A DNA stretch of 36,841 nt, from IMG/VR virus record IMGVR_UViG_2703718801_000025; one strand, given 5' to 3'. A program made the position numbers and the translations under genes. Numbering within the stretch: the first letter of the stretch is position 1; each line of letters begins with the position of its first letter. Source of the DNA: a virus. Taxonomy: Duplodnaviria > Heunggongvirae > Uroviricota > Caudoviricetes. Shown here piece by piece: positions 24,828-28,342 of this stretch. Below the pieces are notes generated by a model that was not told where the DNA came from, made no database searches, and saw nothing but the letters and a program-made list of their open reading frames with translations.

Positions 24828-25163
24828 TTATACTTTGCACCTCTTTGAATAATCTGCAATAATTTCCTCAACACCATCAAAAATAACTTTAAACTTTTCA
24901 AAACTAATTGTTTTACAATTTGCCTTTATAACCTTTGTTGAAAACACATGCTTACCATATTCTGTTTTTGTATCCGTATCATTAGATTTATTAAATGTCT
25001 TTCCATCAAGCACCGTTGATAGTACCGTGCTATCAAATAAATCCTCCATACAAGACTCTTTCCCTCCAGGAAGCAATGGTGTTAATAACAAATAGAGATT
25101 GTCAAATATGTGGGTATACCTTGCCTTACGAATAGTATCAACATCATTTGGACAATTTTTACT
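24828..25163 (-). pseudogene. displaced C-terminal segment of the RT-Toprim gene (-1 frame relative to the RT ORF)
   Basis: This frame is open from 25163 and reads NCPNDVDTIRKARYTHIFDNLYLLLTPLLPGGKESCMEDLFD... with no ATG or RBS of its own. Adding one base in the homopolymer at 25156-25160 joins it to the RT ORF, giving about 585 codons. Confidence 0.6.
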
Positions 25164-26584
25164 TTATCCTTTAAGTGATTTAATAAATCTTTAGGGCCTG
25201 AGTCATTATCAAGAAGCATAATAACAGGGTGCTTTGGTTTAAATTTCTCGAACCTCTTTTTTTGTTCTTGGTATCTTAATATAAATCTTTTGAAGTCTGT
25301 AGCACCGCCAGAAATGTCAAGAAAATAGCTTGTTTTTTCAGTTGCTTTAAAAAAATTAACACGATACTCATTTTTAGAGCTATCATCAGAAGAATTAAAC
25401 AATAAAGGATATGAATTCGCCAATGACTTCAAAGCACACTTTAAATATACACGGTCTGTTTTACCCTCAGTGAGTATTGTTGGCATTTCCATTCCATGAA
25501 AATTTTTATAGTATAGAAAATAACTGTAGGCTTTTTCTCTCGAATTCAATTTTGCAGTGTAATTTAATCCATGATTTACACTTTGGTACTTTTCCAACTG
25601 TCTTGCATTCTTTAGTTTTAAATTATTATATTTATCTATTGAGTCAATGAATCCAAAACGGCCTTCTAATTTAGCACATGTACCTTTTTCAATCTTTCCT
25701 GATTCAGTAACAATAACAAAAGAACCATCTTTATAAAGAGAATGAGCCATGGCACGCGTTACTTTTGCATATTCTTTGCCAACATTCACTTTTTTATTAA
25801 CAGTCAACCCAGTAACATCTTGTCGTGATGTTTTATAACAAACCCTTGTCTTTTTATCATTTATTTTAAAGCCAGCCTTTATAATCTCTTTAATTAAAGT
25901 TGGACTTAGGGTTACAGACTCTCCGCCAACATCAGCAATCTCTTTTGGAAATGTTTTTTTATTAGTTGAAAATGTAAGATCATCAGCATACCGTGAATAA
26001 TTGCATCCGTATTTCTTTGCTAACTTTGATAATCTTATATCAAGAATTCCACTGATTAAGTTACTTATAATTGGAGAGCATGGGCTTCCTTGAGGAAGTC
26101 CATTCTGAAAACATGCAATTTGTGCGATCGTTGTAGCAACAGTATTATTTAATCTAAAATCTCTGTTTGATAAGAAAAAACCTCTAACACGTCCAAAATT
26201 AAAACTATCAAAATAATCCTCAAGATCTATATTTAGTAGTAGCGTTTTACCTCTATGCCGTTCAGCATTCGTAATAATTGACTTTTCTTTTTCAAACCCA
26301 TGAGATAAAACTGGATTAATATTATATTTTTTATAAATTTCTGCACGACATAAATATAAAACATCAGCTAATCTACGTTGAATATCTTTGAGCTTAGTGG
26401 TAGGTGCTGATATGACTCTCGGCGCTCCGTTTTTTTTAGGAATAGTAAATTGTGTATACTGCGTTTCAGCTTTTAAACGATAAATAACATCCGTAAGAAA
26501 AGCAGTTTTAAGATTCAAGATACTAGCCAAATCTTGCCTGTTAGCAGCGTTTTGTAAACGTTCTAAAATTGATAGGGGTGCCAT
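25082..26584 (-). CDS. retron-type reverse transcriptase fused to a Toprim domain; frame ends early through an apparent 1-nt frameshift
   Basis: RT motifs LLNIDLEDYF, NGLPQGSPCSPIISNL and YSRYADDLTF (YADD catalytic box), then Toprim-like TEGKTDRVY and MLLDNDSG. The last 24 codons (IVQMMLILFVRQGIPTYLTISICY) look non-native. Confidence 0.8.
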   Translation of the reverse strand: MAPLSILERLQNAANRQDLASILNLKTAFLTDVIYRLKAETQYTQFTIPKKNGAPRVISAPTTKLKDIQRRLADVLYLCRAEIYKKYNINPVLSHGFEKEKSIITNAERHRGKTLLLNIDLEDYFDSFNFGRVRGFFLSNRDFRLNNTVATTIAQIACFQNGLPQGSPCSPIISNLISGILDIRLSKLAKKYGCNYSRYADDLTFSTNKKTFPKEIADVGGESVTLSPTLIKEIIKAGFKINDKKTRVCYKTSRQDVTGLTVNKKVNVGKEYAKVTRAMAHSLYKDGSFVIVTESGKIEKGTCAKLEGRFGFIDSIDKYNNLKLKNARQLEKYQSVNHGLNYTAKLNSREKAYSYFLYYKNFHGMEMPTILTEGKTDRVYLKCALKSLANSYPLLFNSSDDSSKNEYRVNFFKATEKTSYFLDISGGATDFKRFILRYQEQKKRFEKFKPKHPVIMLLDNDSGPKDLLNHLKDKVKIVQMMLILFVRQGIPTYLTISICY

Positions 26585-27229: not shown

Positions 27230-27565
27230 ATGAACAATATTCCCCCTATACCACAGTTAGGAATTTATGTCTCAAAAATCGATCCCACCCTACGTATCAC
27301 TGTAACCGATGTTGATATTGTTGATGGTGAGGATGATTCTCCTGATGATGAATTGTTTTATTTAGTCCACTGGATCGAGGGGGAAGATGAAAGTGATATG
27401 ACAGCAATGGGATTTGAGCTAGACCCAGTAGAGTGGCAGGCTTTCGTTGAATCTGAGCAATTAGTGTTTGAGCGTGATCCGTACATGGATTCAATCCCCG
27501 AAAATTCAAACTTGGCAAAGATTCGGGATTTTCTCATGAAGACTAAACAGAATGATCATTCGTAA
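27230..27565 (+). CDS. small highly acidic hypothetical protein
   Basis: 111-aa ORF with a strong RBS (aaaaggag), about 26 Asp/Glu against 7 Lys/Arg; no recognisable family. Confidence 0.5.
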   Translation: MNNIPPIPQLGIYVSKIDPTLRITVTDVDIVDGEDDSPDDELFYLVHWIEGEDESDMTAMGFELDPVEWQAFVESEQLVFERDPYMDSIPENSNLAKIRDFLMKTKQNDHS

Positions 27566-27757
27566 GTGTAAGCATCCATCAGGAAAATGGTTTTGTAAGT
27601 GAATCATCAACTTTTAGAGAGTCTCAGACACTCCCACTTCTGCTTCTGACACAAAGCGGACGATCACTTATCAAAATAACCGCCCACCTTACGCCTTATT
27701 TCACTCATTGCCCAAACTAGCCCCCATCAGAATGAATCCTCCTGGGGGCAACATTTC

Positions 27758-27991
27758 TTAATGCAGCCAGCTGTCGTCCTCCCACACCTTCTGCATAATT
27801 TTCATCACTTGTTTTCTTTCTTCATCCAGTTGCAGTCCGGTTAGTTCCACACCGTTAGAGCTACCTTTGCGAACGCGAATTACCGTTTTGGGATACAGGG
27901 GGCGCAGATTGCGGTAAAGCTCGGATTCAAGGGCGTCCAGGGTAGACTGGCTAATCTTCTGCTCTTTATCGATCATTATTTCAATGCGCAT
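27758..27991 (-). CDS. DinI-like protein
   Basis: Starts MRIEIMIDKEQ and ends IMQKVWEDDSWLH, resembling E. coli DinI (MRIEVTIAK...ETWESADDWF); own SD (gaggtg) 6 nt upstream of the ATG. The track ORF extends to 28063. Confidence 0.65.
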   Translation of the reverse strand: MRIEIMIDKEQKISQSTLDALESELYRNLRPLYPKTVIRVRKGSSNGVELTGLQLDEERKQVMKIMQKVWEDDSWLH

Positions 27992-28001
27992 AAAAGTCAC
28001 C

Positions 28002-28190
28002 TCAGCTGATGACATCCATTGAGCGGTTGTATTCGTGGCTTCTGATTTTTGCCATGAGTTCATCAGTCAATTCAGAAACCCACTGCAGAGCCAGCCCCTT
28101 CTCTTCATCACTACACTCACTAGCCGCTACAAGCTTAAGAAAAAAATCAATGCGCTGGAGCTTCAAAGACTCCAAAAAATAGTCCTGCAT
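28002..28190 (-). CDS. small SOS-controlled hypothetical protein, possibly the N-terminal half of a Tum-like antirepressor
   Basis: 62-aa ORF with a perfect SD (aggagg), directly downstream of a LexA box and translationally coupled to the DinI-like ORF. Confidence 0.5.
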   Translation of the reverse strand: MQDYFLESLKLQRIDFFLKLVAASECSDEEKGLALQWVSELTDELMAKIRSHEYNRSMDVIS

Positions 28191-28232
28191 CTTTCCTCCT
28201 ATGACACCAAAACAATACTGTACACATAACCA

Positions 28233-28248
28233 CTGTTTATATTTACAG
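28233..28248. promoter_or_regulatory. LexA (SOS) box over the promoter of the small-ORF/DinI-like operon
   Basis: CTGTTTATATTTACAG fits CTG-N10-CAG with an AT-rich centre and sits among -35/-10-like hexamers upstream of the 28190 start. Confidence 0.6.
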
Positions 28249-28342
28249 TATATAATAATCTTACTGATGTAAAACGTTTTTTTACGTTCATCGGCCTGAT
28301 ATGCCTGGTATTATTAAGAGCACGAATTGTTAACCCGCGTAA

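What the first reader, a model, noticed from the sequence alone, without database searches (positions are those of the whole stretch)
27758..28260. LexA-box-controlled small ORF plus DinI-like gene, resembling a split Tum antirepressor
A CTG-N10-CAG LexA box overlaps promoter-like hexamers upstream of a 62-codon ORF that is translationally coupled (stop within the SD of the next gene) to a 77-codon DinI-like ORF. From memory, phage 186 Tum is a single 146-aa SOS-induced antirepressor with a DinI-like C-terminal half; here the same content appears as two cistrons. This is the likely SOS induction switch of the prophage and could also modulate host RecA.
Basis: partly seen in the sequence, partly recalled or inferred. 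Interest (0 to 1): 0.5.

Follow-up and report, generated by a model that had tools for sequence, protein, structure and literature searches.

The report
Known split Tum SOS operon
This is the DNA-damage "wake-up" switch of a Fels-2/186-type prophage of E. coli, a LexA-repressed two-gene operon (small antirepressor plus DinI-like protein) already described for phages Fels-2 and PSP3, so it is real but ordinary.

Summary
On the minus strand, just after replication gene A, there is one strong LexA box (28231..28250). It overlaps a promoter laid out like the 186 p95 promoter as annotated in that phage's GenBank record. A 62-codon ORF (28002..28190) follows, then a 77-codon DinI-family ORF (27758..27991) whose ribosome-binding site contains the first ORF's stop codon.

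The DinI-like ORF aligns with 186 Tum residues 71-145 (43% identity, E 2e-24). The 62-aa ORF has no BLASTP match to Tum, but profile methods link it to Tum residues 3-43 (hhalign 92.8%, E 4e-7; cross-hits between PHROG families).

It is not new. The locus is about 97% identical to Fels-2 STM2728/STM2726.1. PSP3 annotates the same pair as tumA/tumB. Lemire et al. 2011 (citing Bunny et al. 2002) state that Fels-2 and PSP3 carry tum split in two, and that the upstream PSP3 gene encodes the antirepressor.

The one twist is that the switch's presumed target, the cI repressor, carries an ochre codon at position 80 in this copy. The neighbouring retron Ec67 reverse transcriptase gene is also split. 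This prophage copy appears to be decaying, so the switch may no longer control it.

Novelty: already known. Interest is low.

The parts
28268..28273 (-). -35-like hexamer TTTACA of the p95-type SOS promoter
   Evidence: Read. Aligns with the annotated -35 (TTCACA) of 186 p95 and with TTTACA/TTCACA/TTCCCA in ESSI-2, ev129 and PSP3. Inferred from sequence; not detected by the generic scan.
28231..28250 (-). LexA operator (SOS box) TACTGTAAATATAAACAGTG. Its first six bases, TACTGT (28250..28245), are the -10 hexamer, 17 nt after the -35.
   Evidence: Unique in the window, with 0.00 expected by chance. TACTGT-N8-ACAGT is invariant in 9 related phages at the same position. The homologous site in 186 is annotated as a putative LexA site overlapping the p95 -10.
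28002..28190 (-). tumA-type gene: a 62-aa predicted antirepressor, homologous to residues 3-43 of 186 Tum, with SD AGGAGG at 28195..28200. Coordinates include the TGA stop.
   Evidence: 96.8% identical to Fels-2 STM2728. Profile homology to the Tum N-half. Family of 87 clusters at 50% identity, mostly 50-75 aa. AlphaFold2 model is a helical hairpin, H2-23 and H28-61, pLDDT 90. Antirepressor function is inferred from 186 Tum and from the PSP3 upstream gene (PMC3121763).
27758..27991 (-). tumB/dinI-like gene: a 77-aa DinI-family protein. Its SD GAGGTGA (27997..28003) contains the tumA stop codon. Coordinates include the TAA stop.
   Evidence: Pfam DinI E 5.5e-23. 43% identity to 186 Tum 71-145, E 2e-24. 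Matches solved E. coli DinI 1GHH over its full length, E 2e-6. PHROG 189 'RecA filament binding protein DinI'. Some databases annotate a 101-aa form starting at ATG 28063; that start has no SD, and homology to DinI and TumB begins at MRIE.
27720..27749 (-). GC-rich hairpin (GCCCCCA...TGGGGGC) 8 nt after the dinI-like stop; a possible operon terminator
   Evidence: Fold gives -20.5 kcal/mol for the 66-nt stretch, but z is only -1.45 against shuffles and the T-run is poor. It was not reported by the terminator scan. It lies past the point where homology with Fels-2 ends. Weak evidence.
33412..34008 (+). cI immunity repressor (186-CI type), the presumed target of the antirepressor. In this copy it is a pseudogene with TAA at codon 80 (33649..33651).
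   Evidence: In-frame stop seen in translation. CAA in phages KP12 and vB_EcoM-813R9. PGAP marks it 'internal stop' in an E. coli chromosome that is 100% identical over the 1.4-kb tum-side query. The intact 198-aa protein is seen on at least 1000 contigs, the 79-aa truncated product on 51.

Best explanation
This is the SOS operon of a Fels-2-like (186/P2-family) prophage of E. coli, in the two-cistron tumA-tumB form.

In undamaged cells, host LexA would sit on the operator that contains the promoter's -10 hexamer and keep the operon off. DNA damage activates RecA, LexA cleaves itself, and the operon is transcribed. The first cistron would make a 62-aa helical-hairpin antirepressor that binds the phage CI repressor and stops it binding its operators, which derepresses the lytic promoter. 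The second, closely spaced cistron would make a DinI-like protein that probably acts on RecA filaments and tunes the SOS signal.

Shown here: the sequence elements, their uniqueness in the window, homology of both cistrons to the two halves of 186 Tum, conserved position and operator across relatives, and near-identity to the Fels-2 locus.

Inferred: LexA binding, SOS induction, CI binding and RecA binding. These rest on published 186, PSP3 and Fels-2 work and on family membership.

In this particular copy the cognate cI is truncated by a nonsense codon, so the switch may be vestigial in cis. It could still act on intact repressors of related co-resident prophages and on RecA.
For: - Position directly downstream of gene A, as in 186, PSP3 and Fels-2.
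- A unique consensus-like LexA box overlapping the -10, in the same layout as the annotated 186 p95.
- About 97% DNA identity to Fels-2 STM2728 plus STM2726.1, whose DinI-family gene is annotated as similar to PSP3 TumB.
- PSP3 annotates tumA ('similar to 5' end 186 tum; UV induction of prophage') and tumB.
- The DinI-like cistron aligns to Tum 71-145, E 2e-24.
- The upstream cistron aligns to the Tum N-half by HMM, hhalign and PHROG cross-hits.
- Every stand-alone, split or fused relative examined carries TACTGT-N8-ACAGT 20-40 nt upstream.
- Literature: Tum is a LexA-controlled antirepressor that binds CI. Fels-2 and PSP3 have tum split in two, and the upstream PSP3 gene encodes the antirepressor activity (PMC3121763). 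The title of Bunny et al. 2002 attributes lexA-null lethality in Salmonella to Fels-2. p95-tum alone confers UV-inducible derepression of the 186 switch (PMC7708051).
Against: - No pairwise BLASTP similarity between the 62-aa ORF and 186 Tum or PSP3 TumA. The link rests on profiles built from few sequences; the 186-type alignment has 4 rows.
- The generic promoter scan finds no sigma-70 site.
- The antirepressor activity of the PSP3 upstream gene is reported only as a personal communication, and the Fels-2-type 62-aa protein itself has not been assayed in any paper I could read.
- The primary source, Bunny et al. 2002, is not in the held library.
- cI of this copy is a nonsense pseudogene, so the cis function is doubtful.
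- The hairpins at the cistron junction and after the operon are no better than shuffles.
Confidence: 0.88

Rival explanations
1. The operon is retained mainly as a host-serving SOS modulator. The DinI-like protein, and perhaps the small protein, would tune RecA filament activity during DNA damage. Prophage induction would no longer be its function in this decaying prophage.
For: cI is truncated at codon 80 and the retron RT/endonuclease gene is split, so this copy is degenerating while the tumA-dinI operon is intact. The DinI fold is conserved along the full length of solved DinI. In 186, N-terminally truncated Tum forms that consist of the DinI-like part are annotated as modulating SOS induction. 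The module occurs in 1167 of 5426 complete E. coli genomes.
Against: The truncated cI allele is a minority: 51 contigs against at least 1000 for the intact protein. Its loss is therefore probably recent, and there has been too little time for selection to redefine the operon's role. The NCBIfam DinI equivalog score is 44 bits against a cut-off of 111, so this is not a copy of host DinI. Non-polar dinI-homologue deletions in Gifsy prophages had no measurable effect on induction (PMC3121763), so the role of phage DinI-like proteins is undefined.
Confidence: 0.15
2. The antirepressor acts mainly in trans. On SOS induction it would inactivate the CI repressors of other co-resident Fels-2/186-type prophages or satellites (prophage crosstalk), whatever the state of its own cI.
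For: TumA-type proteins that are 97-98% identical to this one sit next to CI repressors whose N-terminal domains are only 61-85% identical and whose C-terminal domains are 31-39% identical to this one. One antirepressor type therefore apparently serves several immunity types. Trans-acting antirepressors between Salmonella prophages are documented (PMC3121763). Up to 3 copies of the region occur per E. coli genome.
Against: No co-resident target is shown for the source strain. In Salmonella LT2, removing Fels-2 did not abolish Gifsy-2 induction, so no crosstalk from Fels-2 onto Gifsy repressors was seen. The cross-phage comparison is confounded by shared ancestry.
Confidence: 0.2
3. The 62-codon ORF is an unrelated small gene, or a non-functional remnant, that merely shares the SOS promoter with a dinI-like moron. 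Its resemblance to the Tum N-half would be convergent helical-hairpin composition.
For: No BLASTP alignment to Tum or TumA. No Pfam or NCBIfam family. All matching PHROG families are labelled 'unknown function'. The profile also hit a HEAT-repeat protein, which shows that the motif is low in information. The fold search gives only generic helical hairpins.
Against: The profile hit is collinear, starts at the same residue, and is far above shuffles and every other ORF of the window. Intermediate sequences such as P0165, P0175 and Yersinia phage vB_YenM_06.16-2 bridge the two types. Genomic position, operator and spacing are the same. The ORF is conserved as protein down to 41-49% identity in ESSI-2-type phages.
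Confidence: 0.04

Closest known systems
Fels-2 prophage (Salmonella LT2) STM2728 + STM2726.1, the split tum locus
   Same: About 97% DNA identity over promoter, operator and both cistrons, and a 96.8% identical 62-aa protein. Same position after gene A, same LexA box, same two-cistron layout. Described in the literature as tum split in two (PMC3121763, citing Bunny et al. 2002).
   Different: Host is E. coli rather than Salmonella. Downstream, Fels-2 has an orf97-sized gene (STM2726, 732 nt), whereas this window has a retron Ec67 module; homology stops at the dinI-like stop codon. The cI is of a different immunity type (about 72-74% DNA identity over the HTH part only) and carries a nonsense codon.
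PSP3 tumA / tumB
   Same: A two-cistron SOS operon after gene A, with the LexA box overlapping the -10. TumB is about 80% identical by eye to the 77-aa protein here. TumA is annotated as responsible for UV induction of the prophage.
   Different: TumA belongs to a different sequence type: PHROG 1993 against 698, and no BLASTP match. In PSP3 the cistrons are in the same frame, separated by TAG-ATT. Here they are in different frames with a 10-nt gap.
Coliphage 186 Tum (146 aa) and the p95-tum-orf97 SOS operon
   Same: Same promoter/operator layout and position. The Tum N-part (3-43) is homologous to ORF1 and the C-part (71-145) to ORF2. 186 also produces DinI-only products from internal starts, including a GTG start at residue 71.
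   Different: Fused into one polypeptide with a roughly 25-aa linker. N-half identity is only about 20%. orf97 is present downstream in 186 and absent here.
Gifsy-1/-2/-3 dinI-gfoA/gftA LexA-controlled antirepressor operons
   Same: A LexA box next to a phage dinI homologue plus a small antirepressor that binds, rather than cleaves, the repressor (PMC3121763).
   Different: The gene order is reversed (dinI first). The antirepressors and repressors belong to other families and the phages are lambdoid.
E. coli DinI (PDB 1GHH)
   Same: Same family and full-length alignment, including the acidic C-terminal helix region.
   Different: Low identity (E 2e-6). It scores below the NCBIfam equivalog cut-off, 44 against 111 bits. 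It is phage-borne and co-transcribed with an antirepressor.

Membership tests
186/Fels-2/PSP3 Tum-type SOS antirepressor operon | Located immediately downstream of replication gene A in a P2/186-like genome | tested here: met
   gpA (Pfam Phage_GPA, E 3.6e-127) ends at 28343 and the operon starts about 70 nt later. The order is the same in 186, PSP3, Fels-2 and six further phages.
186/Fels-2/PSP3 Tum-type SOS antirepressor operon | Promoter whose -10 lies inside a LexA operator (CTGT-N8-ACAG) | tested here: met
   TTTACA, 17 nt, TACTGT; 20-nt box with 3 mismatches to consensus; unique in the window; aligned with the annotated 186 p95. This is sequence-level evidence only.
186/Fels-2/PSP3 Tum-type SOS antirepressor operon | LexA actually binds and transcription is SOS-inducible | not testable with these tools
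   Needs EMSA or footprinting and reporter or RNA assays. Supported indirectly by published 186 and Fels-2 work.
186/Fels-2/PSP3 Tum-type SOS antirepressor operon | Antirepressor moiety homologous to the N-terminal part of 186 Tum | tested here: met
   BLASTP is negative. Profile tests are positive: HMM 20 bits, E 1.2e-7, top of 659 ORFs; hhalign 92.8%, E 4e-7; 186 Tum 7-44 hits PHROG 698 at 2.4e-5, and the window ORF hits PHROG 1993 at 0.002 and PHROG 8554 at 1e-8.
186/Fels-2/PSP3 Tum-type SOS antirepressor operon | DinI-like moiety, fused or as an adjacent cistron | tested here: met
   Pfam DinI 81.5 bits; 43% identity to Tum 71-145. This feature is not universal: ESSI-2, ENT90 and Yersinia relatives lack it.
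186/Fels-2/PSP3 Tum-type SOS antirepressor operon | Product binds the CI repressor and prevents operator binding | not testable with these tools
   Needs a binding or derepression assay. The cognate cI is a nonsense pseudogene in this copy.
DinI family (Pfam PF06183) | Score above the Pfam gathering threshold over the whole domain | tested here: met
   81.5 bits against 24.2; profile positions 1-63 of 63.
Host DinI orthologue (NCBIfam NF007893 equivalog) | Score above the curated equivalog cut-off | tested here: not met
   44.1 bits against a cut-off of 111. It is a DinI-like family member, not DinI itself.
DinI family (Pfam PF06183) | Binds RecA filaments | not testable with these tools
   Inferred from family membership only.

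The most novel reading that the evidence does not exclude
The Fels-2-type TumA antirepressor may recognise the N-terminal DNA-binding (HTH) domain of CI rather than the oligomerising C-terminal domain, and one TumA type may serve several immunity types.

Across 13 phages, TumA similarity to this protein tracks CI N-domain similarity (Spearman 0.90) but not C-domain similarity (0.3-0.4). Near-identical TumA proteins accompany CIs whose C-domains are only 31-39% identical.

If so, the 79-aa CI fragment left by the ochre codon in this prophage would be the part TumA targets, and the operon could act as a broad, trans-acting SOS trigger among Fels-2-like prophages.
Probability: 0.25. Interest if true: 0.35.

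Novelty: already known. Interest (0 to 1): 0.12.

Why it matters
It matters little as a discovery. The split tumA/tumB SOS operon is annotated in PSP3, and the split has been described in print for Fels-2 and PSP3 since at least 2011 (Lemire et al., who cite Bunny et al. 2002). This window carries a 97% identical copy.

There is some practical value.
- The 62-aa protein is labelled 'hypothetical', or spuriously 'levan regulatory protein', in nearly all databases, and its PHROG families are marked 'unknown function'. Yet it sits in about a fifth of complete E. coli genomes (1167 of 5426) and probably decides whether these prophages wake up after DNA damage or antibiotic exposure. Linking PHROGs 698, 8554 and 1993 to the Tum N-half would correct many annotations.
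- This copy shows a prophage in which the trigger is intact but its repressor target is broken.

Tried and rejected
- BLASTP of the 62-aa ORF against 186 Tum and PSP3 TumA gave no alignment. PSP3 TumA against 186 Tum also gave none. Pairwise search is simply too weak for this fast-evolving hairpin.
- Pfam and NCBIfam have no family for the 62-aa ORF.
- The generic sigma-70 scan found no promoter. This is explained by the weak -10 embedded in the operator, as in 186 p95.
- I tested whether the hairpin at the cistron junction (28013..27996, flagged as terminator-like) is a significant structure. It is not: z -1.64 for 41 nt and -0.15 for 81 nt. It is also absent in PSP3.
- The hairpin after the operon is likewise not significant.
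- I looked for 'Rosetta-stone' fused proteins (Fels-2-type N-half plus DinI) among 87 representative clusters and found none. The longer hits are upstream mis-starts, chimeric contigs and one HEAT-repeat protein.
- I considered stop-codon read-through making a 186-like fused Tum. A +1 shift at AGC-TGA-G has no supporting slippery or re-pairing sequence, so I rejected it.
- Foldseek against the PDB with the AlphaFold model gave only generic helical hairpins, E at least 1.1.
- The PDB sequence search found no solved structure for the antirepressor half.
- The primary paper, Bunny et al. 2002 (PMC151935), is not held. I could use only its title and what Lemire et al. say of it.
- A literature search for which CI domain Tum binds found nothing in the held library.
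- The Rfam scan found no retron msr/msd or other RNA near the locus.

Full report
**1. What is there**

Everything below is on the minus strand of the window. The 806-codon gene at 28343..30763 is a P2/186-type replication gene A (Pfam Phage_GPA, E 3.6e-127).

About 70 nt after its stop codon comes the sequence TTTACA (28273..28268), 17 nt, TACTGT (28250..28245). TACTGT is the start of the 20-mer TACTGTAAATATAAACAGTG (28250..28231), which differs from the LexA consensus TACTGTATATATATACAGTA at three non-core positions.
- It is the only such site in the 36.8-kb window; none is expected in shuffles.
- It is also the only CTGT-N8-ACAG, for which 0.47 are expected by chance.

An AGGAGG Shine-Dalgarno (28200..28195) precedes a 62-codon ORF (ATG 28190, TGA 28004..28002).

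The TGA lies inside GAGGTGA (28003..27997), which sits 5 nt before the ATG (27991) of a 77-codon ORF ending at 27758. That ORF is a DinI-family protein (Pfam 81.5 bits, E 5.5e-23). It aligns along the full length of solved E. coli DinI (1GHH, E 2e-6).

**2. The promoter**

The generic sigma-70 scan reports no promoter, because TACTGT matches TATAAT at only three positions. The GenBank annotation of 186 places the -35 (TTCACA) and -10 (TACTGT) of the SOS promoter p95 in exactly this arrangement, with the putative LexA site beginning at the -10.

An alignment of nine phages puts the window's hexamers and operator in the same columns. TACTGT and ACAGT are the only invariant blocks.

**3. Context and identity**

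The 800-bp region is 96-98% identical to many Peduoviridae prophages of E. coli, Klebsiella and Salmonella. Among them is the type phage Fels-2 at 96.9%.
- In Fels-2 the two genes are STM2728 ('hypothetical') and STM2726.1 ('DinI family protein; similar to TumB of PsP3').
- PSP3 annotates the equivalent pair as tumA ('similar to 5' end 186 tum; UV induction of prophage') and tumB ('similar to dinI and 3' end of 186 tum').
- The 186 record shows the 146-aa Tum, LexA-repressed. It also lists internal start sites that yield shorter products down to a 76-aa DinI-like form said to modulate SOS induction.

The region occurs in 1167 of 5426 complete E. coli genomes. PGAP calls the two genes 'hypothetical protein' and 'DinI family protein'.

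**4. Is the upstream ORF really the other half of Tum?**

The downstream ORF plainly corresponds to the C-half: 43% identity to Tum 71-145, E 2e-24.

The upstream ORF gives no BLASTP alignment with 186 Tum or with PSP3 TumA. PSP3 TumA does not align with 186 Tum either, so this half evolves fast. Four more sensitive tests agree that it is homologous.
- **HMM test.** An HMM built only from four 186-type N-halves (186, ENT90, Yersinia phages vB_YenM_324 and vB_YenM_06.16-2) scores the window ORF at 20 bits (E 1.2e-7). It also scores PSP3 TumA, ESSI-2 and ev129. Run against all 659 stop-to-stop ORFs of the window, it picks this ORF alone (E 5e-5; next best 0.45). The best of 5000 shuffles reaches 9.3 bits.
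- **Profile-profile test.** hhalign of the Fels-2-type family (28 sequences) against the 186-type alignment gives 92.8% probability and E 4e-7. Residues 3-43 pair with Tum 3-43.
- **Independent profiles.** In PHROGs, 186 Tum residues 7-44 hit PHROG 698 (the Fels-2-type family) at 2.4e-5. The window ORF hits PHROG 8554 (1e-8) and PHROG 1993 (0.002). PHROG 1993 is the family of PSP3 TumA and is also hit by the 186 Tum N-half at 1e-22.
- **Bridging sequences.** Intermediate proteins from the 1.84-billion-protein library connect the motifs. Examples are P0165 (…LQRIDLVARLVAAGGSTDGDRALAIAWIAELT…) and P0175.

The shared core is a hydrophobic helix, a turn that often contains a Cys, then [DE][KR]x[LIV]AL-x-[WL][IV]-x-[ED][LI]. 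AlphaFold2 models the 62-aa protein as a confident two-helix hairpin (H2-23, H28-61, pLDDT 90). There is no informative structural neighbour and no solved relative.

**5. Family anatomy**

In nine phages the relative of this ORF lies after gene A, with a TACTGT-N8-ACAGT box 20-40 nt upstream. It occurs in three forms:
- alone (ESSI-2, ESSI2_ev129, ENT90 and the Yersinia phages);
- followed by a separate DinI-like cistron (Fels-2 group, PSP3);
- fused to the DinI-like part (186 and close relatives).

No fused Fels-2-type protein turned up among 87 representative clusters.

In this window the two cistrons are in different frames, with start codons 199 nt apart. In PSP3 they are in frame and separated by TAG-ATT. 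The two split forms therefore probably arose, or were reshaped, independently.

**6. What the literature says**

- Lemire et al. 2011 (PMC3121763, Discussion) describe Tum as a LexA-controlled antirepressor that binds its repressor and whose second half resembles DinI.
[quoted passage not shown] 2002).
- The title of Bunny et al. 2002 attributes the lethality of lexA null mutations in Salmonella to Fels-2. I could not read the paper itself.
- A p95-tum module is sufficient for UV-dependent derepression of the 186 switch (PMC7708051).
- The tum homologue of the P2-like Salmonella prophage BTP5 is its most highly expressed transcript, particularly under nitric oxide shock (PMC7067206).

The split-Tum reading is therefore correct and already known. 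This window holds a new copy of a described locus.

**7. Mechanism**

| Step | Status |
|---|---|
| LexA occludes the -10 | Sequence shown here; binding inferred |
| DNA damage leads to LexA self-cleavage and transcription | Inferred from 186 and Fels-2 |
| 62-aa hairpin binds CI and blocks operator binding | Inferred from homology to Tum and the PSP3 report |
| DinI-like protein, translated from the tightly spaced second cistron, acts on RecA filaments and modulates the signal | Inferred from family membership; its role in phage is unresolved, since Gifsy dinI deletions had no phenotype |

Translational coupling is plausible from the stop-in-SD arrangement. The junction hairpin is not statistically notable.

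**8. A twist in this copy**

The cI gene (33412..34008, plus strand) has TAA at codon 80 (33649..33651). Klebsiella phage KP12 (99.6% identical over the 671-nt cI region) and E. coli phage vB_EcoM-813R9 have CAA at that codon.
- PGAP marks the gene as a pseudogene in an E. coli chromosome that is 100% identical over the 1.4-kb tum-side query.
- The intact 198-aa protein, which UniProt names 'ORFi in retron Ec67', is seen on at least 1000 contigs. The 79-aa truncated product is seen on 51.
- The adjacent retron Ec67-family RT/endonuclease gene is also broken. A 500-aa ORF covers profile positions 1-465 of 572, and a separate 73-aa ORF covers positions 506-572.

This is therefore a decaying copy of the retron-Ec67 prophage. 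Its SOS trigger is intact but its cognate target is not, so the rival readings (host SOS modulation, or trans action on other prophages) gain some weight for this copy.

**9. A hint on specificity**

I compared three quantities across 13 phages: identity of the TumA-type protein to this one, identity of the CI N-terminal domain and identity of the CI C-terminal domain.
- TumA similarity tracks the N-domain (Spearman 0.90).
- It does not track the C-domain (0.3-0.4).
- TumA proteins 97-98% identical to this one accompany CIs with N-domains of 61-85% identity and C-domains of 31-39%.

This suggests that TumA reads the HTH domain and that one TumA type serves several immunity types. The sample is small and is confounded by shared ancestry, so it is a lead and not a result.

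**10. Verdict**

The feature is a member of a known and published kind, the Fels-2/PSP3 split tum SOS operon. Interest is low. The useful by-products are a firmer sequence link between three 'unknown function' PHROG families and the Tum N-half, and the note that this prophage copy has lost its repressor and its retron RT.

Noticed in passing
window 33412..34008 (+), stop at 33649..33651: The 186-type cI repressor has an in-frame ochre codon (TAA) at codon 80, at the boundary between the HTH domain and the C-terminal domain. Close relatives have CAA. The truncated 79-aa product is seen on 51 contigs, the intact protein on at least 1000. PGAP calls it a pseudogene.
   Followed up: yes
window 25082..26584 (-) and 24828..25049 (-): The retron Ec67-family reverse transcriptase/endonuclease gene is split. 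The 500-aa ORF matches NCBIfam NF038237 positions 1-465 of 572, and a separate 73-aa ORF matches positions 506-572. The endonuclease (C-terminal) part is therefore disrupted. No msr/msd RNA family was found by Rfam.
   Followed up: partly
window ~27748..27760 and downstream to ~24800: Homology with Fels-2 and relatives stops at the dinI-like stop codon. The orf97-type gene that follows tum in 186 and Fels-2 is replaced here by cargo: a 111-aa acidic ORF on the opposite strand (27230..27565, PHROG 17127, unknown function) and the retron. The intact CI of this prophage is UniProt 'ORFi in retron Ec67', so this is the retron-Ec67 prophage.
   Followed up: partly
window 27758..28063 (-): The dinI-like reading frame stays open 24 codons upstream of its ATG and overlaps the 3' end of the 62-codon ORF. 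Many databases therefore annotate a 101-aa 'DinI family protein', including the Fels-2 UniProt entry. The 77-aa start has the SD and matches DinI and TumB N-termini, so the 101-aa form is probably a mis-start.
   Followed up: partly
L004-L009 (Yersinia phages vB_YenM_06.16-2, vB_YenM_324 and vB_YenM_31.17; Erwinia ENT90; Cronobacter ESSI-2; ESSI2_ev129): Many P2-like phages carry a stand-alone TumA-type ORF with its LexA box after gene A and no DinI-like partner. In several records (vB_YenM_324, ESSI-2) the ORF is not annotated at all. ENT90's protein looks like a 186-type Tum that ends after the linker.
   Followed up: partly
window 34029..35705 (+): A 558-aa coiled-coil-rich DUF4041 protein lies between cI and the integrase. 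It is annotated 'chromosome segregation ATPase' in phage records and is likely a moron or defence cargo gene.
   Followed up: no
window 2700..2778 (+): RybB small RNA (Rfam RF00110, 105 bits). This marks host chromosome at the far end of the window. At the other end, the reference chromosome has the integrase followed by rcdA.
   Followed up: no
P0164 (1205-aa protein from the representative library): The TumA profile hits 10 tandem HEAT-like repeats (…AIDALVKLIADSNVDDxTK…) of a large NTPase-type protein. This is a chance resemblance, but it shows that the TumA core motif looks like a HEAT-repeat helical hairpin.
   Followed up: no
window 28276..28291 (-): A short palindrome, AACGT-AAAAAA-ACGTT followed by T's, lies between the end of gene A and the -35 hexamer. 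It may be a weak terminator insulating the SOS promoter from early lytic transcription. Lemire et al. note terminator-like palindromes before the LexA boxes of Gifsy prophages. It was not reported by the terminator scan.
   Followed up: no
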